A DNA stretch of 56,384 nt, from NCBI GenBank assembly GCA_003697105.1, contig RFFQ01000169.1, positions 1 through 56,384 on the forward strand. The letters are read 5' to 3'. Shown here one piece after another: positions 29,513 to 40,265 of the stretch. The notes under the pieces were generated by a model. The model had not been told where the DNA came from. It was given only the letters and a program-made list of their open reading frames with translations, and did no database searches. How positions within the stretch are numbered: position 1 is the stretch's first letter; the number at the start of each line of letters is the position of its first letter. This DNA is from Gemmatimonadota bacterium (GTDB taxonomy: Bacteria > 4572-55 > J002). Made by a program: the position numbers and the translations under genes.

Positions 29513-32500
29513 ATGTTGATCCGCTTAAATTTAATTTTTAGCCTCATTGTTTTGCTATTCACTACCAGCGTTGCAGAGACATTATTTGAGGTGAAAGATG
29601 AAGCCGGACAACCCATTTTCGCCGTGACTTCGGAAGGGATTATTGTGCGAAATGCGGCAGGGGATACACTTATGAAAGTGGATAATTCCCAAATTTTAAT
29701 GGTGATTGATCAAGGTTCAGAAGATGGACGTGCACCGGCGCGGAGTTTTGCTATCGGACAAGGGTCGAGTTTGAATCGCGAAGGGGAAATCAATGATTTG
29801 ATCATGACTGTCAGTGATGATGAAGTGCGTATTAATTTGCGTGAAAGTGGGGTAGAGCGGGCACCGGCGCGGAGTTTTGCTATTGGGCAAGGGTCCAGTT
29901 TAAATCGGGAGGATAATGCCGAATTTTTCACCCTTTCCCCGGACTCCGTTGCGGATATTATCATTGATGAGCCGCGGATGGTCTGGTATCCGCAGCGGGA
30001 AGCCTTTCGCGTCGGGCGGGTTATGATCGAACATCCCGATAGCGTCGGTTTCAATTCCACCGGCACGGGCTACCATGCGCTGGCAATTGGAAATTTTTCA
30101 CAATCAATGGGATACGAAACCGTGGCACGCGGTGACTTTTCCACGGCTATCGGGCGGGAAAGTGTCGCTCAGGCGAATAATTCGTTTGCATTTGGTCAGG
30201 AAGCTCAAGCCTTAAAGCAGGGTTCATTTGCCTTGGGGTTTAATGCCACTGCCGATGCCCGTAACTCCTTTGCGTTGGGGCAGGATGCGTATACCCAAGG
30301 GGTCAATACGGTTGCGCTGGGGTTTGGGGCGACAGCGGTGGGACGGAATTCCTTTGCTCAAGGGCGTAATGCCACCTCCGCTGGGCTTAGCTCTTTTGCT
30401 TTAGGGGATAGCAGTTTTTCAACCGGCAGTAATTCGTTTGCCATTGGGCGTAAATGTTTTGCCGGTGGTCAGATTGAAGCCGACGATCCGGCAGCAAATA
30501 CATTTGCCATCGGGTTTGACTCTTATGCTGGCGGATTGGGTTCATTTGCGCTGGGGAGTAGTGTGGGGGCGGAAGGTGCCAGTGCGTTTGCTCTGGGTTT
30601 TGAATCCTATGCGGGCGGGGTCGGTTCGTTCGTTTTAGGTACTCATTCCGGGGCAAATGGGGAAAATTCGTTTGCCTTAGGTTTTGAGAATGGCGCGGAG
30701 GGACGGAGTTCTTTTGCCTTGGGCGAACGTTCAAATGCTGCTGGCGAAGGTGCCTATGCCATCGGTTCTGGTGTGTCCGCCGAGGGCAATAACTCATACG
30801 CTATTGGACAAAACTGTGTCGCGGGATATTTTGTCACCGCTGAAGGGGATACCATTCGCGGCGAAAACTCCTTTTCTATTGGGGCAGAATCGTATGCCGG
30901 TGGGGTTGGTTCCTATGCCCTCGGTACCCGTTCTGCTGCTGCCGGGGCAAATTCCTTTGCGTTAGGGTTTGAGAATGTCGCGGCGGGTATCAGTTCTTTT
31001 GCCATTGGGGATCATGCTGTATCCGAAGGAGAAGGCGCCTACGCCATCGGGTCACATGCCAGCACTTACGGCTCCGGTTCATACGCACTGGGCGATAGCT
31101 CCCAATCCACGGGAAGTAATTCCTTTGCTATTGGCAAAAATTGTGTCGCGGGTGGACGAATTGCAAACGGGGTATTTTCCGCGAATACGTTTGCGATTGG
31201 CTTCAGTTCTGATGCCAGCGGTGCTGGATCATTTGCGATTGGGAGTGAATCGGAAGCAAGCGGCGCGAGTTCGTTCGCCATCGGGTTGCAGAGTTCCTCT
31301 CGCGGCGCCAATTCCTTTGCCCTCGGTGCGGAAGCGGTCGCGGATGGGTTGGGTTCATACGCCATCGGTTCTAACGCTGTTGCAGAGCGGCAATCTGCCT
31401 ATGCGCTGGGTTCAAATACCTATGCCTCGGGGACAGGGTCTTTTGGAATCGGATTTGACGCGGCGGCCGTCGGCGAAAATGCGCTGGCACTCGGGCGAGA
31501 TGTGGTCGCTTTTAGCCAAAGTGCGGTGGCGTTCGGTGAATCCTGTTTATCGACCGGAATTAACTCTTTTGCTATCGGAAATCTGTGTATTGCGGGAGGG
31601 GATACCGCTAATGGTAACCGAGATTTTGCCGCAAATTCCTTTGCCATTGGGCGAGAATGCCGCGCCGCCGGTGAGGGTTCTTTTGCCATTGGGAATCAAG
31701 CCATTGCGACCGGGCTTAATTCATTCGCGCTGGGGCATGGCTCTGAATCTCGGGGAAGTAGTTCGTTTGCCTTAGGAATTGGCACTTATGCGGATAACTT
31801 TGGGGCGATGGCAACCGGTTTTCAATCCGAAGCGACCGGAAATGTTGCCAACGCTTTTGGGGCATATACCAGTGCCAGCGGGGAGGTGTCCACTGCCATG
31901 GGGTTTGGTGTTTCTACGGCGGGACATGCCGGAGCATTTATTTATGGTGACTATAGTCGTTTTCGGATCGAACTAGATGAAGAAGGGAATCCGTATGCCG
32001 TCCCATCTGACACCCTAGAGGCAGAGTGGGATAATCAATTTATGGTACGGGCTACCGGCGGCGTAAAGTTCATCAGTGGCTATACCGTCGTGGGTGATAC
32101 TGCGATTGGTGTCGTTCTGCCGCGCAATGAGGGGCAATGGCAGATGATTTCCGACCGAAATCGGAAAGAAAACTTTCAGGATGAAAACCCGGCGGAAATT
32201 CTGCAAAAAGTAGCTCAATTACCAGTACAAAGCTGGAATTACAAAGGGCAAGACCCCACCAAACGCCACGTCGGTGTGACGGCGCAAGATTTCTATGAAG
32301 CGTTTCGTATCGGCGTCAGTGACACTACCCTTTCCGCAATGGATGTTGCCGGTATCAACATGCTTGCCATTCAGGCATTGGAAGACCGTACTGCCGAATT
32401 GATGAAGGCGCAAGCGGAAAATGAAGAACTCCGTGCCGAACTCCACCAACTGAAATCCCAAATGCAAGCGTTTGAACATCAACTGCATCAGTTGCAAGCC

Positions 32501-32545
32501 GCCGTTGAAAGCACCACAACACCCGCGGTGGCACGTGTCAAATAA
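29513..32545 (+). CDS. Secreted trimeric fibre/adhesin with YadA-head-like repeats and C-terminal S74 intramolecular chaperone
   Basis: Signal peptide, about 40 14-residue x9-SFA[I/L]G repeats, ISDRNRKENF...WNYK...HVGVTAQDF (S74), terminal coiled coil; SD AGGAG. Confidence 0.88.
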   Translation: MLIRLNLIFSLIVLLFTTSVAETLFEVKDEAGQPIFAVTSEGIIVRNAAGDTLMKVDNSQILMVIDQGSEDGRAPARSFAIGQGSSLNREGEINDLIMTVSDDEVRINLRESGVERAPARSFAIGQGSSLNREDNAEFFTLSPDSVADIIIDEPRMVWYPQREAFRVGRVMIEHPDSVGFNSTGTGYHALAIGNFSQSMGYETVARGDFSTAIGRESVAQANNSFAFGQEAQALKQGSFALGFNATADARNSFALGQDAYTQGVNTVALGFGATAVGRNSFAQGRNATSAGLSSFALGDSSFSTGSNSFAIGRKCFAGGQIEADDPAANTFAIGFDSYAGGLGSFALGSSVGAEGASAFALGFESYAGGVGSFVLGTHSGANGENSFALGFENGAEGRSSFALGERSNAAGEGAYAIGSGVSAEGNNSYAIGQNCVAGYFVTAEGDTIRGENSFSIGAESYAGGVGSYALGTRSAAAGANSFALGFENVAAGISSFAIGDHAVSEGEGAYAIGSHASTYGSGSYALGDSSQSTGSNSFAIGKNCVAGGRIANGVFSANTFAIGFSSDASGAGSFAIGSESEASGASSFAIGLQSSSRGANSFALGAEAVADGLGSYAIGSNAVAERQSAYALGSNTYASGTGSFGIGFDAAAVGENALALGRDVVAFSQSAVAFGESCLSTGINSFAIGNLCIAGGDTANGNRDFAANSFAIGRECRAAGEGSFAIGNQAIATGLNSFALGHGSESRGSSSFALGIGTYADNFGAMATGFQSEATGNVANAFGAYTSASGEVSTAMGFGVSTAGHAGAFIYGDYSRFRIELDEEGNPYAVPSDTLEAEWDNQFMVRATGGVKFISGYTVVGDTAIGVVLPRNEGQWQMISDRNRKENFQDENPAEILQKVAQLPVQSWNYKGQDPTKRHVGVTAQDFYEAFRIGVSDTTLSAMDVAGINMLAIQALEDRTAELMKAQAENEELRAELHQLKSQMQAFEHQLHQLQAAVESTTTPAVARVK
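29729..29911 (+). repeat. Internal 54-bp direct repeat encoding RAPARSFAIGQGSSLNRE twice
   Basis: Copies at 29729-29782 and 29858-29911 (129 nt apart), identical peptide with synonymous differences. Confidence 0.9.
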
Positions 32546-32646: not shown

Positions 32647-33654
32647 ATGGAAAATTACCAACACCACGCCGAGCATTTCAAAGCCACCTTTGAACGCATT
32701 GAGCAGGAATTGGGCAAGGTGATTGTTGGGCAACGTGCCATTATCCGGCAGGTATTGCTCGCGCTATTTGTGCGAGGTAACGTCTTGCTGGAAGGCGTGC
32801 CGGGGTTGGGTAAAACCCTACTGGTGCGCTCCTTGGCGCAAGTGATGGATTTACAGTTTTCCCGGATTCAATTCACCCCTGATTTGATGCCAGCGGATAT
32901 TCTCGGCACCAATATCGTTGAGGAAAATGAACGGGGTCAGCGGTTTTTCCGCTTCCAACATGGGCCCATTTTCGCCAATCTGATTTTGGCAGATGAGATC
33001 AATCGCGCCACGCCTAAAACACAATCTGCCTTATTAGAAGCCATGCAAGAGCACAGTGTCACGGTGGCAGGGGAAGTCCGCCAACTCGATGAACCGTTTT
33101 TTGTCTTAGCGACTCAAAACCCACTGGAAATGGAGGGTACATACCCCTTGCCAGAAGCGCAACTGGATCGCTTTCTCTTCAAAATTCAAGTGACGTTTCC
33201 CAGCCATGCAGAACTGAGTGAGATCATCGACCGTACCACGACCGGACACCAACCCACGCTGGAAAAAGTCACTTCGGCGACAGAATTGATTGCCTTACAA
33301 CGTCTCGTTCCGTTAGTACCCATTGCCAACCACGTTAAAGATTATGCCTTGCGGTTGGTCCTGGCGACTCATCCGGAGCAGGCGGACAGTCCGGAAATTA
33401 CCAAACAGTACATTCGCTACGGCTCAAGTCCCCGTGGAGTGCAAGCGATCATTCTTGCCGCTAAAGCACTTGCTCTATTGGATGACCGTTACAATGTCAG
33501 TTTTGATGATATTCAGGCGGTGTTTCATCCGGCGTTGCGCCACCGGCTGATCCGGAATTTTGAAGGTGAAGCTGAAGGTATTTTGCCAGATACCATCCTA
33601 GACCAAATTTTAACTGCTATCCCCACCGATTCTCTCCTCACAAACGAGACGTAG
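32647..33654 (+). CDS. MoxR family AAA+ ATPase
   Basis: LLEGVPGLGKT, RIQFTPDLMPADI, LADEINRATPKTQSALLEAM, ATQNP.E.EGTYPLPEAQLDRF; start likely ATG 32647. Confidence 0.96.
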   Translation: MENYQHHAEHFKATFERIEQELGKVIVGQRAIIRQVLLALFVRGNVLLEGVPGLGKTLLVRSLAQVMDLQFSRIQFTPDLMPADILGTNIVEENERGQRFFRFQHGPIFANLILADEINRATPKTQSALLEAMQEHSVTVAGEVRQLDEPFFVLATQNPLEMEGTYPLPEAQLDRFLFKIQVTFPSHAELSEIIDRTTTGHQPTLEKVTSATELIALQRLVPLVPIANHVKDYALRLVLATHPEQADSPEITKQYIRYGSSPRGVQAIILAAKALALLDDRYNVSFDDIQAVFHPALRHRLIRNFEGEAEGILPDTILDQILTAIPTDSLLTNET

Positions 33655-33656
33655 TC

Positions 33657-35414
33657 ATGTCACCGCGCTCCAACGGATTCCCAAACGAACAGGTCGAACT
33701 CCATCACCGCGTCCGTGCCTTGATGATCTTCCGGTTAATCGTGATGACCGGCTTACTGGTCATTGGTATTTTAATCCTTGATAAAGGGGATTTCCCGTAT
33801 GCGTTGGGCCCCATTTACGGTATTATCATCGCCGGTTACGTGTTGACCCTTATTTATTGGATTCTACTAGAGTTACGGATATCCTACTTTTGGTTACTTT
33901 ATACCCAGTTGTTCATTGATGCCGTACTTCAGACCGGTTTGGTGCATTTTTCGGGTGGGATTACCAGCCAATACATCATTTTATACCCGTTGATCATCCT
34001 TGCCGGCAGTATTTTTTATCAGGTTTCCGGGGGGTTGATCATTTGTACCTGGTCATCTATTCTGTTTTCCCTCGCAATCTGGCTGGAGTACACCGGACGC
34101 CTACCACAGGTCATCCGTGATGAAGAGGCGCGTTATATCTCCGGTAGTATGGTTTTTCTGCGGGTGTATCTGCATATCTGTTTTTTCTATCTGATTGCTT
34201 TTTTAGGGGGATTTCTCTCCGAGCGTGCGGAACGGAAACGCCGCGAAGCGTTGCAAGCCACAACCGAACTCCAACGGGTGCGTCTCAACACGGACGACAT
34301 TCTGCGCAATATGAGCAGTGGCTTGATCACCATTGATGAACAAGGACGGTTGGTTTCTTTCAATCGTGCCGCCGCCCGAATTTTAGGATGCCCCTATGAG
34401 GAAAATTACACCGGACGCGATTGCATGGAATTATTTGACCGCCATTTGCGCGAATTTGGAACACGTTTGATTCGAGTCCTTCATGAGGGGATTTTGCATG
34501 ACAGCTATGAATTGATGATTCTCCCTCCCGGGGCATCGACCTATCGCCCCATTGGCGTCAAAACGACCCTGTTGACCGAAACCGATGGGCAAAAACGGGG
34601 GGTTATTGCCTTGTTTGAAGACCTAACCGATCAAAAACGGTTGGAAGAACGAATTCGGCGTTCCGACCGGTTGGCGGCGGTGGGACGTCTCTCTGCCGGG
34701 ATCGCTCATGAAATCCGCAACCCGTTAGCCTCCATTAGCGGTGCGGTACAGATGCTGAAAGACGAATTAAAATTGGAAGATGATAACCTAAGATTGTTAA
34801 ATTTAGTAGTTCGCGAGTCCGACCGTTTGAATGGGATTATTGGCAACTTTCTCTATTTTTCTCGCCTTGAAACGGCTACCGAGATGCGCGACATCCATTT
34901 ACAGCGACTAATGGACGATCTATTTTTTCTGATTAAAAATCGCCCTGATGTGGTGGAACATGAACACGAGTTGGAATACGAAATTAACATTGATGCTGAC
35001 CTGATTGTTTACGGCAATCTGGACCAATTGGAACAGTTGTTCCTAAATCTCTGTTTAAATGCGTTACAAGCGATGGACTACGCTGGGCAGATACGTATCA
35101 CCGCCTATCAGGATGATTTGGAATGGGTGGTTATCCACTTTTCAGATACCGGTAAAGGGATCGCCCCCGATCAAATGGATAAAATTTTTGACCCCTTTTA
35201 TACCAATCGTCGTGGAGGTACCGGATTAGGCTTGGCGATTGTAAGCCGCATTATCGAAAACCATCGCGGTGAAATTCGGGTAGAAAGCACGCCCCATCGA
35301 GGTACGACATTTGTGTTACGTCTGCCGAGCACTCCTCCCACCACGATTGGACGTCCGCAGCACAGCGTATCTTCATCCGCTTCAACCGTACCGACCCCAA
35401 CATCACCGGTGTAA
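33657..35414 (+). CDS. PilS-like membrane PAS sensor histidine kinase
   Basis: About 6 N-terminal TM helices (FRLIVMT, HFSGGITS), PAS, AHEIRNPL, QLFLNLCLNA, DTGKGI, GGTGLGL. Confidence 0.88.
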   Translation: MSPRSNGFPNEQVELHHRVRALMIFRLIVMTGLLVIGILILDKGDFPYALGPIYGIIIAGYVLTLIYWILLELRISYFWLLYTQLFIDAVLQTGLVHFSGGITSQYIILYPLIILAGSIFYQVSGGLIICTWSSILFSLAIWLEYTGRLPQVIRDEEARYISGSMVFLRVYLHICFFYLIAFLGGFLSERAERKRREALQATTELQRVRLNTDDILRNMSSGLITIDEQGRLVSFNRAAARILGCPYEENYTGRDCMELFDRHLREFGTRLIRVLHEGILHDSYELMILPPGASTYRPIGVKTTLLTETDGQKRGVIALFEDLTDQKRLEERIRRSDRLAAVGRLSAGIAHEIRNPLASISGAVQMLKDELKLEDDNLRLLNLVVRESDRLNGIIGNFLYFSRLETATEMRDIHLQRLMDDLFFLIKNRPDVVEHEHELEYEINIDADLIVYGNLDQLEQLFLNLCLNALQAMDYAGQIRITAYQDDLEWVVIHFSDTGKGIAPDQMDKIFDPFYTNRRGGTGLGLAIVSRIIENHRGEIRVESTPHRGTTFVLRLPSTPPTTIGRPQHSVSSSASTVPTPTSPV

Positions 35415-35636
35415 AATTATCACCCTCATTTCATCTCCGGTTCGATGGATATGGTGACGGTATTTGCCGTAATAACCTCCCTCAATCAGAGATTTTATTC
35501 TCAACATGTTACAGCAAGATCCGCCTTTCCAACCGGACACCATCGTTTGACGTGTCTTCTCTGAGTTCCCCGTTTACCTCCGAAGAGAACATCCGAACCG
35601 TTTTACCGGCACCGTGGAAGCACCGTGTTTTTTCGC

Positions 35637-35665
35637 TTGACTCTCCTTCTAAAAGGTGGTATCAT
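35637..35665 (+). promoter_or_regulatory. Sigma70-type promoter with extended -10 upstream of the intein-like gene
   Basis: TTGACT-17 nt-TATCAT, preceded by TGn. Confidence 0.7.
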
Positions 35666-35728
35666 TTAAAGCAAAACATGAAGTGAACTTATTTTTATCG
35701 TTTTTTATGAGATAGTTACCACAAACAA

Positions 35729-37024
35729 ATGTACGCTTTTGGAAGCGATCTTTTCGGGCAGCCAGCTCATAGTTTACAGATCGAGTTAGCCCTTCCTGAA
35801 CGACCCGGCGTTGCACTTCCGGCAGAGGCAGTAAGTGCCGCTAGCCATGTAATTCAAGTGAAGAATGGGGTTTGGAATCCGTTGCACGACATTTACCATA
35901 CCTCTCGTCAAGATTGGCTCGTTTTGGGATTAAATGAGACTCATAAAGTGGCACCCGCGCGGATATATACCATCCAACACGCTCAAAAAGGGCGGTTGTA
36001 CCGGCTGGTGACCCGGCGCGGGCGGGAATTAGTTGCTACCGAAAATGTCCGGTTGCTTACACCCACCGGCTGGACGGCATTAAAACTATTGAAACGAGGT
36101 GCGTTCATTGCGAGTTTACGCCATATTCCGTTTCGATTAACTCGCAGTTTATACCATCACCAACTGATTTTGCTGGGGTATCTTCTGAGTGATGCTACGG
36201 CATTGTCTGAGGACAAAATCACGTTTTCCGCCCGGCAAAAAAGCCATGTTGAGGATTTCACACACCATATTCATCAATTTGAGCACACCCACGTTGAAAT
36301 TGAAGGTTGGCACGGTCGAGAAGCCGTTATTCTGACTGCCACGCATGAATTACCTCATATTTCCGCCCTGATCGAGTGGGTTGACCAATTAGGTCTCGTC
36401 TCCGAAAAGCAACTTCCAAAGCTGGTGTTTACGTTGTCACACACCGATGTTGCCTTGCTGATGGGGCGGTTGTGGTCTGTCTGCGGCAAGGTTGTCCTAG
36501 ATGCCAATAAAACGATCTTTTTCACGACATCGACGCGGTTGGCTCGCCAACTTCAGCATCTACTGCTCCGGTTTGGCATTATCAGCAAATTGGAGACAAC
36601 CCGCCGGCAGTCTCGTTTGGTGGTTTCGGGGTCCTATTATCTTCATCGATTTTACCAGACCTTTACCCGGTTTTTATTAGGCACAGTTTCCCGAAATCTG
36701 AAAAAATGGTACCGGCGCCAACGAGTAACCAACGGCACCACATTTCTGGAAACAGACCCCATTCCCACAGCACTTCTGCCCACGGATGACCCGGCAATGA
36801 GCACGATTGGGGATCAACAGCAGTATATTCAACGTCGCCGCCTGTACCAACTGTACCAACGCCATCCGGCAATAGAACTTAAAACGATTATCGAATCCGA
36901 TATTTACTGGGATCGGGTTCGCTCCACGAAACCGGACCCATCTCCATTTCGGGAGTCTATAAAACTTGTGACATCCGATGCGGTGGCAGTGAATGACCTG
37001 ATCGTCAAATTTGGACACACGTAA
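35729..37024 (+). CDS. Stand-alone intein-derived protein (Hint + LAGLIDADG domains), predicted splicing-inactive
   Basis: Block B-like RLYRLVTRRGRELVATENVRLLTPTGW, LAGLIDADG-like LLGYLLSDA and LMGRLWSVCG, block H-like TSTRLARQLQHLLLRFGIIS, block F/G-like SDIYWDRV...AVNDLIVKF; no extein sequence. Confidence 0.82.
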   Translation: MYAFGSDLFGQPAHSLQIELALPERPGVALPAEAVSAASHVIQVKNGVWNPLHDIYHTSRQDWLVLGLNETHKVAPARIYTIQHAQKGRLYRLVTRRGRELVATENVRLLTPTGWTALKLLKRGAFIASLRHIPFRLTRSLYHHQLILLGYLLSDATALSEDKITFSARQKSHVEDFTHHIHQFEHTHVEIEGWHGREAVILTATHELPHISALIEWVDQLGLVSEKQLPKLVFTLSHTDVALLMGRLWSVCGKVVLDANKTIFFTTSTRLARQLQHLLLRFGIISKLETTRRQSRLVVSGSYYLHRFYQTFTRFLLGTVSRNLKKWYRRQRVTNGTTFLETDPIPTALLPTDDPAMSTIGDQQQYIQRRRLYQLYQRHPAIELKTIIESDIYWDRVRSTKPDPSPFRESIKLVTSDAVAVNDLIVKFGHT

Positions 37025-37080
37025 CCATTTCATCGCAAATGATGTTTATCTTTCGTACATTCAATAATACCGGAGGAAAT

Positions 37081-38007
37081 ATGATGACACACCGGAGCAT
37101 TTATGTGATCGGTTTATGGGTGGGGATGATGCTGATCGGCGGTTTTACGACATCCAGTGTTGCCGCAGAGCGCTATGGCTATGAACCCCAACGGGTAGTG
37201 GATGCCCCGACTGCCGGCATGATTGACCGGGATCGACTTTCGCTCTCTACCCGCACGTATGATGGTGGCGGTACGATGGTTTTTCTGATGTACGGTATTA
37301 AAGCCGGCAAAACTCAGGCATTTGCCGTCGGCTTTTCCGTGGGAGCAGATAGTTTGGTCGGAAATGGCTCCATGAAAGCCCGCTTTAATGTTCAGGCAAA
37401 ATTTCGATTCTGGAACGAGGAGCATGATACGTGGAAACCGGCTTTGGCTGTCGGGCTGGATATGCAAGGTTACGGACCCTACAGCGAAGAGTACGAGCGG
37501 TACCAGTATAAATCCAAAGGCTTATATGGGGTTGTCAGTAAAAATTGGCATTTGGGTTACCTGAACGATTCCAACTTCTCCTTTGGAAATTTGGGTTTAC
37601 ATTTTGGTCTGAATTATGCATTTGAACAACGTAAAGATGAAGAAACCGGTTTCAATGCCTTTTGGGGGTTTGATAAAGTCCTGTGGGAACGTAGTGTAAT
37701 CATTAAAGACCCGTGCACCGACCGCTCCACTCGGGTTTCCCAACCGGTAGTGGAACTCATGGGCGAGTATGATTTTGGTCTAAACGATGATCGCCCCGAT
37801 GGACGATTCGGTGAACCGGGCCGGCAAGGGTACCTCAATGCCGGATTGCGCGTTTTTCTCTTTTCGCGCTGGGAACCGGAGATGTCCCAGTTAAAACCCT
37901 CCTTGATCCTTGAATTATACGCCCGCAATCTCAACAAAAATAACGGTGATGTCAGCCGGGAGTTTGGCTTGAGTTTTCAGACAGATTTACAGTTTCGGAT
38001 CAACTAA
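37081..38007 (+). CDS. Putative outer-membrane beta-barrel protein (YjbH-like domain)
   Basis: SD GGAGG before ATG 37081, signal peptide, VDAPTAG motif, alternating beta-strands ([30 protein letters not shown]). Confidence 0.7.
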
Positions 38008-38057
38008 ATGGGGGCAACTCACTCCGATCCGCGGGTGATCGTACTGCAAACTTTTTG

Positions 38058-38086
38058 TTGACATTCGATCTGAGATGTGATAGTAT
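38058..38086 (+). promoter_or_regulatory. Sigma70-type promoter immediately upstream of accA
   Basis: TTGACA-17 nt-TAGTAT with TGn extension; ATG lies only 10 nt after the -10 box. Confidence 0.78.
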
Positions 38087-38096
38087 TCCTTCCACT

Positions 38097-39056
38097 ATGA
38101 GCGAATTTATACTGGATTTTGAGCGTCCCATTTTGGAGCTCGAACGCAAAATTGATGACTTGCGCGGCTTCGCCGAAACGGAGAATCTTGAGTTTACCGA
38201 TGAGATTCAAACGTTAGAGGAAAAGTGCCTCCGGCTGAAAGAGGAAATTTATTCCAATCTGACCCGTTGGCAGCGGGTTCAGCTTGCCCGGCATCCCAAA
38301 CGTCCTTACGCCCTAGATTATATTCATGCCATGCTTACGGATTTTGTGGAATTGCATGGTGACCGTAATTTTGCCGATGATAAAGCGATTGTGGGCGGTC
38401 TCGCAAAACTTGAGGGCCAACCGATTGTGGTTATTGGGCAACAAAAAGGGCGGGACACCAAAGAAAATCTAGTCCGTAATTTTGGTATGCCTCACCCGGA
38501 AGGCTATCGCAAAGCCTTACGGCTGATGAATCTTGCCGCTAAATTCAACCGGCCTATCTTATGTTTAGTTGATACCCCGGGCGCGTATCCCGGTATTGGC
38601 GCGGAAGAACGGGGACAGGCGGAAGCTATCGCCCGTAATTTGCGAGAAATGGCAACCCTTCCCGTGCCGATTATTGTAGTAGTGATTGGGGAAGGTGCCA
38701 GTGGCGGCGCGCTTGGTATTGGCGTCGGTGACCGGATTTTGATGTTGGATAACACCTGGTTCTCGGTGATTTCCCCGGAAGGATGTGCGGCAATTCTCTG
38801 GCGCAGTGCCGAAGAACGCGAACGTGCCGCCGAAGCCCTGAAACTTGCCCCGCAAGACCTGCTGGAATTGGGCATCATTGATGAGATTGTCCCAGAACCG
38901 CTGGGCGGTGCCCACCGCGATCCACAAAAAACAGCGCAAAATTTGAAAAACCGGTTGGTTGCGATCTTTAATGAACTGCAACAGCTATCCTGTGATGATT
39001 TAATTGATCAGCGCATCCAAAAATATGAAAAAATGGGTGTTTTTATTGAAGAATAG
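38097..39056 (+). CDS. accA: Acetyl-CoA carboxylase carboxyltransferase alpha subunit
   Basis: [65 protein letters not shown]; start ATG 38097. Confidence 0.98.
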
Positions 39057-39086
39057 TTCCTCCGGCGATTAAAGGAGGGGATTGAC

Positions 39087-40265
39087 GTGGCACTACAAGG
39101 CGACTTAAAAGATTTTCATCTCAATGACATTATCCAGCTAATCCATATGGGGAAGCAGACCGGTGCGATCCATATTGATACGGCTACAGCACATGGAGTG
39201 ATCTATTTTGAGGACGGTGAAGCCGTTCATGCCACCATTGGAGATCAAGCCACGGGAGAAAGAGCGGTCTTCCAGATTTTGCACTGGCTTGAAGGAGAAT
39301 TCACCTTTTTGCCCAATCAGACGACGACCGAACGATCCATCTCCATGAACGTCCAGAATCTGGTGATGGAAGGCACCCGCCAAATCGATGAGTGGGAACG
39401 GCTACGCGATCTCATCCCCTCACTGGATATTGTTGTGAAGTTTAACAGTGACCCGGGGAGCAGTACGCAGGACATCAATTTACATCCCAAAGAGTGGAAA
39501 GTGCTCTCCCTTGTCAATGGGTTACGGAGCGTGCGGGAGATTGCCGCTCAATGTGGCCTCTCTGAATTTGAAACGTGTAAGACATTGTACGGGTTGATCT
39601 CATCCGGTCTGTTGGCAGTGGTCAAGGATGCTCCGGTAAAACCTGCCGAACCGGTGACGATCACCGATAATGCTCCGGCAGCAACACAAACCCCGCCTTC
39701 ACCGGCTAAACGAGCCATCCCATCTGATCAAGACCCTTCAAAATCAAGTATCTGGAATATCTTTGGTATTGGGGGCGCAAAAAAAGAAAAAGAGCGTGAA
39801 AAACGAGAGTCCGCCGTTGATATTCCACCAGAGCAATTGCAACGAATTCGGAACGATGACTCGCCGCCGCAACTGGAAGCCATGGAAACCTTTATCAATG
39901 CGCTCCTTGATGACTACGAAACGCCAAAAGGGCTTTTCCCCGCGGTTAAATTCTCAATGCCGCTTGCCCAACGCATCCGTAAATACGAGCAAAAATTCCC
40001 AGCGATGAAGTACGTCCTTGTAAAAGATGGTCGAATTGATACCCTTTATGCCGAATCTCAAGTGCAAAGTGGGGGAGCAGAACAACAGGATATTCTGTTT
40101 GGCTTAGGTGACATCGCTCAAGATTTGCTTGAAGATGCTAAAAAGAGTTTGACGCCACGCTCTGCAGTGAGCCGCTACAATGCCACCTTTGACCGAATAT
40201 TTAAAGACCATTTTGATATTCGCGCTTTGGAACTCGGCGCATTTATCAAAAAAGCCAGCCCATGA
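39087..40265 (+). CDS. DUF4388 (PATAN-like) domain protein with wHTH-like middle and unknown C-terminal domain
   Basis: MALQGDLKDFHLNDIIQLI...TG.I...G.IYFEDG..VHA...GEF.F; EWKVLSLVNG.RSVREIA. Confidence 0.8.
   Translation: MALQGDLKDFHLNDIIQLIHMGKQTGAIHIDTATAHGVIYFEDGEAVHATIGDQATGERAVFQILHWLEGEFTFLPNQTTTERSISMNVQNLVMEGTRQIDEWERLRDLIPSLDIVVKFNSDPGSSTQDINLHPKEWKVLSLVNGLRSVREIAAQCGLSEFETCKTLYGLISSGLLAVVKDAPVKPAEPVTITDNAPAATQTPPSPAKRAIPSDQDPSKSSIWNIFGIGGAKKEKEREKRESAVDIPPEQLQRIRNDDSPPQLEAMETFINALLDDYETPKGLFPAVKFSMPLAQRIRKYEQKFPAMKYVLVKDGRIDTLYAESQVQSGGAEQQDILFGLGDIAQDLLEDAKKSLTPRSAVSRYNATFDRIFKDHFDIRALELGAFIKKASP

What the first reader, a model, noticed from the sequence alone, without database searches (positions are those of the whole stretch)
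35729..37024. Free-standing, splicing-dead intein with its own promoter: candidate domesticated Hint-LAGLIDADG protein
Seen: the whole ORF follows the layout of a full-length DnaB/DnaE-type bacterial intein, but with only a ~33-aa N-terminal leader and 3 residues after block G. Established splicing residues appear systematically replaced: block A Cys1 to Ala (AVSAASHV vs CLxGDTxV), block B TxxH to TENV, block F VYD to SIK, terminal His-Asn to Lys-Phe, and no +1 Cys/Ser/Thr. LAGLIDADG motif 1 keeps its Asp (LLGYLLSDA) while motif 2 has lost it (LWSVCG vs LWATDG). The frame is nevertheless open for 431 codons, the protein is very basic, and a TTGACT-17-TATCAT promoter precedes it. Inference: an exapted intein acting as a DNA-binding regulator or nickase, analogous to WhiA (domesticated LAGLIDADG) or yeast HO. 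Alternatively it could protect a homing site from a related active intein.
Basis: partly seen in the sequence, partly recalled or inferred. Interest (0 to 1): 0.82.

Follow-up and report, generated by a model that had tools for sequence, protein, structure and literature searches.

The report
Stand-alone splicing-dead intein gene in a bacterium
A hot-spring bacterium carries a complete intein (self-splicing protein insert plus homing endonuclease) as a separate gene with no host protein and no splicing residues, resembling the ancestry of yeast HO, though its present use is unproven.

Summary
ORF 35729..37024 (+, 431 aa) is homologous end to end to full-length DnaB/DnaE-type inteins. It sits in a 437-codon open frame with a 33-aa disordered leader and 3 residues after block G. 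No extein remnant was found. Against 86 aligned inteins, A:1, B:10, F:4, F:13, G:6, G:7 and +1 are all replaced, and only Thr B:7 is kept. LAGLIDADG motif 1 keeps its Asp; motif 2 has Cys.

The decay is uneven. Non-catalytic conserved columns are kept 28 of 36 in the endonuclease domain, like working inteins, but only 9 of 21 in Hint-C, below every relative. Together with the open frame and host-like codon use, this argues for selection on the protein after it left its host gene.

It is a singleton. No relative exceeds 32% identity among 1.84 billion representatives, and none occurs in the 2 other genomes of its phylum. dN/dS and expression could not be tested.

Best reading (0.5): a retained, non-splicing DNA-binding protein that at most nicks DNA. 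Rivals are a decaying relic or a selfish stand-alone endonuclease. This scan noted two similar phage cases before.

The parts
35613..35635 (+). Terminator-like hairpin plus T-run, about 200 nt after the histidine-kinase stop codon and directly before the promoter-like site
   Evidence: stem 35613-35627, 5 pairs, followed by TTTTTT. This is a consensus scan only; 4 such sites were found against 3.6 expected.
35637..35665 (+). Sigma-70-like promoter match, TTGACT-17-TATCAT, with a TG extension
   Evidence: 10 of 12 positions match. The region-wide count is not above shuffles (3 against 4.2). It would give a 5' UTR of about 60 nt. There is no SD-like 4-mer at -20..-4; about 47.5% of 1692 long ORFs in this genome have one.
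35729..37024 (+). Whole ORF, 431 aa plus stop: an extein-less intein homolog
   Evidence: AlphaFold2 with an 87-row alignment gives pLDDT 90.9 and pTM 0.90. Foldseek's best match is 7qss, the TliVMA intein with endonuclease, E 3.8e-21, TM 0.67.
35729..35827 (+). N-terminal leader, aa 1-33, with no detectable homology
   Evidence: pLDDT is below 50 for residues 1-24. No DnaB or DnaE extein similarity: tblastn best E 1.9 for the genome's own DnaB, and DnaE-fragment queries match only from about aa 33 onward.
35828..36133 (+). Hint N-terminal subdomain (blocks A and B), aa 34-135. A34 replaces Cys1; T104 is kept; V107 replaces His B:10
   Evidence: It keeps 18 of 27 non-catalytic conserved columns (relatives' mean 0.80).
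36134..36733 (+). LAGLIDADG (dodecapeptide) endonuclease domain, aa 136-335. Motif 1 keeps its Asp (D155, codon 36191-36193). Motif 2 has Cys (C252, codon 36482-36484). The conserved Lys K227 is kept
   Evidence: Pfam LAGLIDADG_3 E 2.1e-9.. It keeps 28 of 36 non-catalytic conserved columns (0.78), equal to the relatives' mean of 0.79.
36734..36883 (+). Linker or helical region between the endonuclease domain and Hint-C, aa 336-385. It holds the population variant P344S (36758 C>T)
   Evidence: It keeps 4 of 5 conserved columns.
36884..37012 (+). Hint C-terminal subdomain (blocks F and G), aa 386-428. S410 replaces Asp F:4, D417 replaces His F:13, and K427-F428 replace His-Asn. This is the most degenerate part
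   Evidence: It keeps 9 of 21 non-catalytic conserved columns (0.43), below the lowest of 83 relatives (0.57).
37013..37024 (+). Three-residue tail Gly-His-Thr plus the stop codon. There is no +1 nucleophile and no C-extein
   Evidence: The next gene (a barrel-like protein, with a GGAGGA site before ATG 37081) follows within 57 nt.

Best explanation
The gene is a former DnaB/DnaE-type intein that left its host gene and now stands alone in the chromosome. It is made as a 49-kDa basic protein that cannot splice or self-cleave. What has been kept is the fold, and above all the LAGLIDADG endonuclease module.

Its most likely activity is sequence-specific DNA binding through the LAGLIDADG saddle, with the Hint-derived part as a scaffold or accessory DNA-contact domain. 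One of the two catalytic acids is replaced (D252 to C), and the Gly after the first acid is Ala. It therefore probably no longer makes double-strand breaks and at most nicks one strand.

Shown: the architecture, the loss of exteins and of the splicing residues, the uneven conservation, and the singleton status. Inferred: that it is expressed, that it binds DNA, and that the host uses it.
For: 1. **Full-length intein homology and fold.** The ESM Atlas's own single-sequence model has pTM 0.85.
2. **No exteins.** The open frame is 437 codons. No DnaB or DnaE remnant lies in the flanks. By contrast, 53 of 53 intein matches in 178 genomes of another phylum lie in open frames of 657-2213 aa.
3. **Splicing residues gone.** Seven of eight catalytic or assisting splicing positions, as listed in PMC4031507, are replaced.
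4. **Replacement is selective.** Among columns >=90% conserved in relatives, catalytic ones are kept 0 of 6 and the others 19 of 25 (Fisher p 0.0013).
5. **Conservation differs by domain.** Endonuclease domain 28 of 36 kept (relatives' mean 0.79); Hint-C 9 of 21 kept (below all 83 relatives).
6. **The frame is open despite this divergence.** In point-substitution simulations, only 2 of 3000 runs stayed stop-free when 12 of 30 invariant codons had changed. With 5-6 of 24 non-catalytic invariant codons changed, 1.2-2.8% stayed stop-free.
7. **Codon use reads in frame and GC1/2/3 match the genome**.
8. **The arrangement is real.** Independent Logan contigs of two runs show the same layout, and identical pieces occur in runs of two other studies.
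9. **No mobile-element genes within about 12 kb**.
Against: - No ortholog exists anywhere: best non-self identity is 29-32% among 1.84e9 representatives. Nothing was found in the 2 other genomes of the phylum, nor by pattern scans of genome and metagenome contigs. Conservation over time is therefore untested.
- It has the longest terminal branch in the tree (1.98 against a median of 0.64 and a maximum of 1.46). This could equally mean relaxed constraint.
- Its coding score is only at the 3.6th percentile of the genome's long ORFs.
- The single population variant in the ORF is non-synonymous (P344S).
- There is no SD-like site.
- The promoter is only a consensus match.
- The alignment rows were chosen by similarity to the query, which may flatter the endonuclease domain.
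- The AlphaFold2 confidence comes from an alignment of real inteins; the single-sequence run failed (pLDDT 35).
Confidence: 0.5

Rival explanations
1. Decaying relic. An intein, or a fragment of an intein-bearing dnaB or dnaE gene, landed here by illegitimate recombination or ectopic homing. It has no function and simply has not yet acquired a stop codon.
For: It is a singleton with no ortholog. It has the longest branch in the tree. Its coding score is low for this genome (3.6th percentile). One of the two endonuclease acids is lost. The only population variant is non-synonymous. This fits the degeneration phase of the homing cycle (established model, recalled).
Against: Neutral decay should hit all conserved columns alike. 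Instead, catalytic columns are kept 0 of 6, other conserved columns 19 of 25, and the endonuclease domain is kept at the level of working inteins. Staying stop-free is improbable at this divergence (2 of 3000 runs, or 1.2-2.8% under the milder assumption; indels ignored). Codon use and GC3 are host-like.
Confidence: 0.22
2. Selfish stand-alone homing endonuclease gene derived from an intein, like yeast WHO elements. It would still cut or nick a target, such as the copy-less allele of this intergenic site or dnaE/dnaB, and spread by repair.
For: The endonuclease domain is conserved as in working inteins. D155 and K227 are kept. The gene has an intergenic position with its own promoter-like site. 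WHO and HO show that extein-less intein derivatives can be active endonucleases (PMC7282813: abstract and section 6 read). Its nearest clade in the tree is the DnaE inteins (support 0.83), and dnaE is missing from this assembly.
Against: The motif-2 acid is Cys, where 82 of 86 relatives have Asp. There is one copy in the genome. No related copy occurs in the other 2 genomes of the phylum or in any database. No flanking repeats or duplicated target fragments were found. No mobile genes lie nearby.
Confidence: 0.18
3. It still splices or self-cleaves by a non-canonical (class 2 or class 3, Ala1) mechanism.
For: [quoted passage not shown]
Against: Class 2 needs Cys+1, His B:10, Asp F:4 and Asn G:7. 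Class 3 needs Cys F:4 and a +1 nucleophile (PMC4031507 passages). Here these positions are G429, V107, S410 and F428. There is nothing to ligate: 33 aa on one side and 3 aa on the other.
Confidence: 0.02
4. Assembly or binning artefact: a chimeric contig joins an intein from another organism to this chromosome.
For: The source is a metagenome-assembled genome of 199 contigs.
Against: Logan's independent contigs of two runs span the ORF together with both neighbours: a 7760-nt record covers 33600-39100 with 4 differences, and a 9313-nt record covers 35459-39100. These runs may be the source samples. GC and codon-position GC match the genome.
Confidence: 0.02

Closest known systems
Canonical class 1 inteins with a LAGLIDADG endonuclease in DnaB and DnaE (sequence relatives P0035, P0036, P0039 and others; Ssp DnaB mini-intein 1mi8/6fre; structural match TliVMA intein 7qss, PI-PfuI 1dq3, PI-SceI 1vde)
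   Same: Same domain order (Hint-N, two-motif LAGLIDADG domain, Hint-C). Same conserved structural residues: G47, G114-W115, K227, P230, the QHLLLRFG block, W394-D395, N422-D423. Same predicted fold.
   Different: It is not embedded in a host protein. All nucleophiles and all assisting residues except Thr B:7 are replaced. The motif-2 Asp is Cys. Identity is at most 32%, and it has the longest branch in the tree.
Yeast HO endonuclease and WHO elements (PMC7282813)
   Same: They are independently transcribed, extein-less genes derived from an intein. They do not splice, and the C-terminal splicing motif is degenerate or missing.
   Different: HO and WHO carry a C-terminal zinc-finger domain and are active endonucleases of budding yeasts. 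This ORF ends 3 residues after block G, has no zinc finger, is bacterial, and has lost one catalytic acid. There is no sequence kinship beyond the shared intein ancestry.
WhiA/DUF199 (3hyi, 8dy9), a bacterial transcription factor derived from a LAGLIDADG endonuclease
   Same: A LAGLIDADG scaffold that has lost catalytic residues and serves for DNA binding. It appears among the Foldseek matches (E about 1e-5 to 1e-6).
   Different: WhiA has no Hint domain and has a C-terminal helix-turn-helix. No WhiA Pfam family was listed for this ORF at E up to 10. WhiA is widely conserved, whereas this is a singleton.
Bacterial intein-like (BIL) domains
   Same: They are Hint-fold domains in bacteria that lack the +1 nucleophile (PMC4031507 passages).
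   Different: From recall: BILs have no endonuclease domain, sit inside larger, often secreted proteins, and still cleave. This ORF has the endonuclease domain and stands alone.
Stand-alone dead inteins in phage genomes noted earlier by this scan (e1-6027456, e1-1991752)
   Same: The same phenomenon as described there: an extein-less intein homolog with catalytic residues lost.
   Different: Those are in phage genomes. This one lies among housekeeping and signalling genes of a bacterial chromosome. No sequence likeness was found. Those notes were not checked here.

Membership tests
Intein (protein-splicing element, class 1) | Encoded in frame inside a host protein (N- and C-exteins) | tested here: not met
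   The open frame is 437 codons, with a 33-aa leader and a 3-aa tail. No DnaB or DnaE extein similarity lies in the flanks.
Intein (protein-splicing element, class 1) | Cys or Ser at A:1 and Cys, Ser or Thr at +1 as nucleophiles | tested here: not met
   This ORF has A34 and G429. Relatives have C 75 and S 1 at A:1, and S 60, T 22 and C 1 at +1, out of 86.
Intein (protein-splicing element, class 1) | C-terminal Asn G:7 with His G:6, His B:10 and Asp F:4 as assisting residues | tested here: not met
   This ORF has F428, K427, V107 and S410. Relatives have N 83, H 81, H 82 and D 83 of 86. His F:13 is D417 here (H in 66 of 86). Only Thr B:7 is kept.
Intein (protein-splicing element, class 1) | Hint fold and sequence homology to inteins | tested here: met
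   NCBIfam E 5.8e-35. phmmer E 2.4e-34. The model matches intein structures. Pfam Intein_splicing scores 25.8 bits, below its 35.8 cut-off.
Class 2 / class 3 inteins | Ala1 compensated by Cys+1 attack (class 2) or Cys at F:4 (class 3), plus Asn G:7 | tested here: not met
   This ORF has G429, S410 and F428. Definitions come from PMC4031507 passages.
Double-motif LAGLIDADG homing endonuclease | Profile match to the family | tested here: met
   Pfam LAGLIDADG_3 scores 38 bits against a cut-off of 22.5. In the genome search it scores 39.2 bits.
Double-motif LAGLIDADG homing endonuclease | One acidic catalytic residue at the end of each of the two motifs | tested here: not met
   Motif 1 keeps D155. 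Motif 2 has C252, where 82 of 86 relatives have Asp.
Double-motif LAGLIDADG homing endonuclease | Site-specific DNA cleavage | not testable with these tools
   Needs an in vitro cleavage or nicking assay.
HO / WHO family | Extein-less, independently expressed intein derivative | tested here: inconclusive
   Being extein-less is met. Independent expression rests only on a promoter-like match.
HO / WHO family | C-terminal zinc-finger domain (Cys-X-X-Cys repeats) | tested here: not met
   The ORF ends 3 residues after block G and has no such domain. The feature is as stated in PMC7282813, section 6.
WhiA | LAGLIDADG_WhiA plus C-terminal HTH_WhiA domains, no Hint domain | tested here: not met
   No WhiA family is listed in the Pfam scan at E up to 10. 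A Hint domain is present.

The most novel reading that the evidence does not exclude
This would be a bacterial counterpart of yeast HO: an intein that escaped from a replication gene and was taken over by the host as a site-specific DNA-binding regulator or nickase. The splicing half would be reduced to a scaffold. It would be the first such domestication of a whole intein seen in a bacterial chromosome.
Probability: 0.35. Interest if true: 0.8.

Novelty: new variant of a known kind. Interest (0 to 1): 0.55.

Why it matters
Inteins are treated as strictly parasitic inserts that survive only because splicing keeps the host protein alive. The one well-studied case of a whole intein leaving its host gene and gaining a cellular role is yeast HO and its WHO relatives.

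A bacterial gene with the complete intein architecture, no host protein, every splicing residue replaced, and an endonuclease module as well kept as in working inteins suggests the same route is open in prokaryotes.

If the protein binds or nicks a defined site, it gives two things. One is a natural example of how a selfish element becomes a host DNA-binding factor. The other is a splicing-inert intein scaffold that protein engineers could use.

If it is only a relic, it still documents the escape step itself, which is rarely caught.

Tried and rejected
- **Single-sequence AlphaFold2** gave no usable model (pLDDT 35.4). It was replaced by the run with alignment A2.
- **First residue-mapping scripts.** mis-indexed the block B residue, and its local alignments did not reach the termini. 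The pairwise glocal mapping was unreliable at the C-terminus. From it I use only His B:10 in 168 of 181 sequences, as a rough check. All counts come from alignment A2.
- **Synteny.** The kinase's orthologs in the 2 class-mates (42% identity) are followed by an IF-2B-family gene. The barrel gene's weak homolog in G001 lies in another context. No empty site can be defined.
- **Flanking repeats or target duplications:** only short chance-level repeats.
- **Rfam:** nothing except one sub-threshold match at E 0.18.
- **Leader as extein remnant.** The leader's 'ERPGV' resembles the DnaB P-loop 'GRPSMGK'. I considered it as a remnant of an N-extein and dropped it: tblastn of the genome's own DnaB on the region gives best E 1.9.
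- **Tail as extein remnant.** The tail 'GHT' against the DnaE C-extein start 'SHA' is too short to weigh.
- **Expression:** no RNA holder listed.
- **Other runs.** Runs X3 and X4 hold only short identical pieces (247 and 222 nt), so there is no divergent allele to compare.
- **Phage records:** 2 hits, both inside terminase genes.
- **ESM Atlas feature search** lists clusters of 291-456-aa 'Intein/homing endonuclease' proteins in Actinomycetota and viruses. These are leads that stand-alone forms may exist elsewhere. They could be gene fragments, and I could not fetch them.
- **Literature.** None of the 25 listed of 87 papers held the phrases 'free-standing intein', 'domesticated intein' or 'extein-less'; their matches were for 'intein-like'. 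No paper held 'standalone intein', 'stand-alone intein', 'intein remnant', 'degenerate intein', 'inteins without exteins' or 'orphan intein'. These are exact-phrase searches of an open-access library only. Supplements were not consulted.
Full report
**What is there**

The + strand carries an ORF at 35729..37024 of 431 codons. The frame is open for only 437 codons, so no longer protein can be read.

Its product matches intein-bearing replication proteins:
- NCBIfam's intein-containing DnaB model, E 5.8e-35, over the model's intein part.
- Pfam LAGLIDADG_3 above its cut-off. Pfam Intein_splicing below its cut-off (25.8 against 35.8 bits).
- Solved Ssp and Npu DnaB mini-inteins by sequence (names).

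An exhaustive HMMER search of 1.84 billion representatives gave 1227 hits at E<=1e-3. Apart from the protein itself, the best reach 29-32% identity (E 2.4e-34). Of the 149 other listed hits, almost all are 560-2000-aa host proteins. I read 10 sequences, including 7 of the 9 shorter than 520 aa. All were DnaB or DnaE proteins or fragments with extein sequence and canonical junctions.

With an 87-row alignment, AlphaFold2 gives pLDDT 90.9 and pTM 0.90, with residues 1-24 disordered. Foldseek's best matches are full-length inteins with endonucleases: TliVMA 7qss (E 3.8e-21, TM 0.67), PI-PfuI and PI-SceI. LAGLIDADG enzymes and WhiA rank lower. That model leans on the alignment, and the single-sequence run failed. 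However, the ESM Atlas's own single-sequence model of this exact protein has pTM 0.85 and aligns to intein-bearing DnaB clusters at TM about 0.84.

**It stands alone**
- tblastn of the genome's own DnaB on 35301-37200 gives nothing better than E 1.9.
- DnaE fragments with inteins match the assembly only at this ORF, and only with their intein parts.
- Logan's independent contigs of two runs of a hot-spring metagenome span the ORF with both neighbours. Those runs may be the source samples. Two runs of other studies hold identical 247-nt and 222-nt pieces.
- As a baseline, I searched 178 genomes of another phylum with this protein. All 53 matches, in 42 genomes, lie in open frames of 657-2213 aa.

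**It cannot splice**

The catalytic and assisting positions are those listed by Mills, Johnson and Perler (PMC4031507; passages only). The table compares this ORF with the 86 relatives of alignment A2.

| Position | Relatives (of 86) | This ORF |
|---|---|---|
| A:1 | Cys 75, Ser 1, gap 10 | Ala34 |
| B:7 | Thr 70 | Thr104 (kept) |
| B:10 | His 82 | Val107 |
| F:4 | Asp 83 | Ser410 |
| F:13 | His 66 | Asp417 |
| G:6 | His 81 | Lys427 |
| G:7 | Asn 83 | Phe428 |
| +1 | Ser 60, Thr 22, Cys 1 | Gly429 |

The Ala1 classes are excluded too. Class 2 needs Cys+1, His B:10, Asp F:4 and Asn G:7. Class 3 needs Cys F:4.

In the endonuclease domain, motif 1 keeps its acid (D155; relatives D 49, E 31), although the following Gly (84 of 86) is Ala. 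Motif 2 has Cys252 where 82 of 86 have Asp. The conserved Lys227 is kept.

**Is it a relic or a kept protein?**

No ortholog exists, so dN/dS is impossible:
- Nothing in the 2 other genomes of its phylum.
- Among 60 other genomes sampled, only two ordinary inteins, in 915-aa and 965-aa frames.
- Nothing in pattern scans of genome and metagenome contigs.
- The 90% cluster holds only a one-residue variant.

I therefore used internal evidence.

1. *Selective replacement.* Among columns at least 90% conserved in relatives, the catalytic ones are kept 0 of 6 and the rest 19 of 25 (Fisher p 0.0013). Relatives keep 96.5% of these columns on average and this protein 61%.
2. *Conservation by domain, non-catalytic conserved columns*:

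| Domain | Kept by this ORF | Relatives |
|---|---|---|
| Hint-N | 18 of 27 (0.67) | mean 0.80 |
| Endonuclease | 28 of 36 (0.78) | mean 0.79 |
| Linker | 4 of 5 (0.80) | mean 0.85 |
| Hint-C | 9 of 21 (0.43) | mean 0.79, minimum 0.57 |

   This is the reverse of what is usual in inteins, where splicing is indispensable and the endonuclease decays (established view, recalled).
3. *Open frame.* I simulated point substitutions on the ORF until as many invariant codons had changed as observed. The frame stayed stop-free in 2 of 3000 runs (12 of 30 codons changed). Under the milder assumption (5-6 of 24 non-catalytic codons changed), it stayed open in 1.2-2.8% of runs. Indels were ignored.
4. *Codon use.* Codon usage reads strongly in frame (+0.25 per codon, against -0.63 and -0.52 in the other frames). 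GC at the three codon positions is within 1 SD of the genome's long ORFs. The score itself is low for the genome, at the 3.6th percentile.

Points on the other side:
- Its terminal branch is the longest of 85 in the tree (1.98, against a median of 0.64 and a maximum of 1.46).
- The only variant in the population is non-synonymous (P344S, in a variable column).
- The start has no SD-like site, as is true for roughly half of the genome's long ORFs.
- The rows of A2 were picked by likeness to the query, mostly over residues 89-295. This may flatter the endonuclease domain.

**Origin**

The top sequence hits are DnaB inteins, at both the P-loop and the RESG|SIEQD sites. The ML tree puts the protein beside a clade of 20 DnaE inteins with support 0.83. 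With so long a branch, I leave the host gene unresolved.

In this 96.85%-complete assembly:
- dnaB (500-aa frame, both insertion sites uninterrupted) and recA (351-aa frame) have no intein.
- No other sequence matches the intein or LAGLIDADG_3 profiles above noise.
- dnaE is not in the assembly at all. It is present and intein-less in G001 (junction YGFNK|AHA) and not found in G002. A resident dnaE intein in the real genome therefore cannot be excluded.
- No protein above 32% identity exists in the databases, which include assemblies of the source runs.

**Surroundings**

The ORF lies in a run of same-strand genes:
- MoxR-type ATPase.
- PAS histidine kinase (stop at 35414).
- The ORF.
- A barrel-like protein of no Pfam family.
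- accA.
- A DUF4388 protein.

Signalling, adhesin and protease genes lie further out. No integrase, transposase or phage gene occurs within about 12 kb.

A terminator-like hairpin (35613-35635) is followed directly by TTGACT-17-TATCAT (35637-35665). Such matches are no more frequent here than in shuffles. No terminator-like site separates the ORF from the barrel gene.

**Reading**

The descriptive part is secure: this is an extein-less, splicing-dead, full-length intein homolog in a bacterial chromosome.

For function I commit to a retained DNA-binding protein. It would use the LAGLIDADG saddle and be unable to make double-strand breaks because one catalytic acid is gone; it might nick. Confidence is 0.5.

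| Rival | Confidence |
|---|---|
| Relic still open | 0.22 |
| Selfish stand-alone endonuclease of the WHO kind | 0.18 |
| Non-canonical splicing | 0.02 |
| Assembly artefact | 0.02 |

**Comparison with the known**

It works most like yeast HO and WHO. According to Coughlan et al., these have no exteins, do not splice and lack motif G (PMC7282813; abstract, section 6 and passages read). It is not a member of that family: there is no zinc finger and no special sequence kinship, and it is bacterial.

It resembles WhiA in principle, as a LAGLIDADG scaffold turned DNA binder. Unlike WhiA, it keeps the Hint domain and lacks the HTH.

It fails the defining tests of an intein on exteins, nucleophiles and Asn, while keeping intein homology and fold.

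My phrase searches of the open-access library found no description of such a gene in bacteria. That is weak evidence of absence.

This scan has noted two extein-less dead inteins in phage genomes before (not checked here). The ESM Atlas lists clusters of 291-456-aa 'intein/homing endonuclease' proteins that may be further cases or mere fragments. I therefore rate it a new variant of a known kind, not a new category.

Noticed in passing
whole assembly G000; G001:C160 (L028); G002: No DNA polymerase III alpha (dnaE or polC; PF07733) is found in this 96.85%-complete assembly. Neither the profile, nor DnaE fragments, nor the class-mate's DnaE finds it. It is also not found in G002 (93% complete). 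G001 has an intein-less dnaE. An essential gene missing from 2 of 3 assemblies of the phylum may point to an assembly-breaking feature in it.
   Followed up: partly
window 38055-39056: The accA ORF as listed starts at TTG 38055, but a TTGACA-17-TAGTAT promoter-like site (38058-38086) lies inside its first codons. The Pfam match begins at residue 20. The real start is probably a downstream ATG ('MSEFILDF...').
   Followed up: no
window 37039-38007 (likely start ATG 37081 after GGAGGA): A 308-322-aa protein with a signal-peptide-like N-terminus and no Pfam family. Its only relative found (31-39% identity) is in G001, next to a weak FadL/TodX-like gene. It is probably an outer-membrane barrel of an undescribed family.
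   Followed up: partly
window 29513-32545: A 1010-aa protein with YadA-head repeats and a Peptidase_S74 (endosialidase chaperone) domain. Its region has raised GC (0.53-0.57) and a strong positive GC skew compared with the neighbours.
   Followed up: no
window 23928-48442: All 12 long, non-nested ORFs in this 24-kb stretch lie on the + strand.
   Followed up: no
L016 (G002:C47:42217-43896) and many kinase paralogs in G001/G002: Several histidine-kinase matches in the two class-mates, including the ortholog of the neighbouring kinase in G002, carry a single in-frame TGA within the match.
   Followed up: no
window 33668, 34433, 34888, 37451: The window differs from the Logan contigs of both source-study runs at four positions in the neighbouring genes: two synonymous, plus R411H in the kinase and V124A in the barrel protein.
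   Followed up: partly
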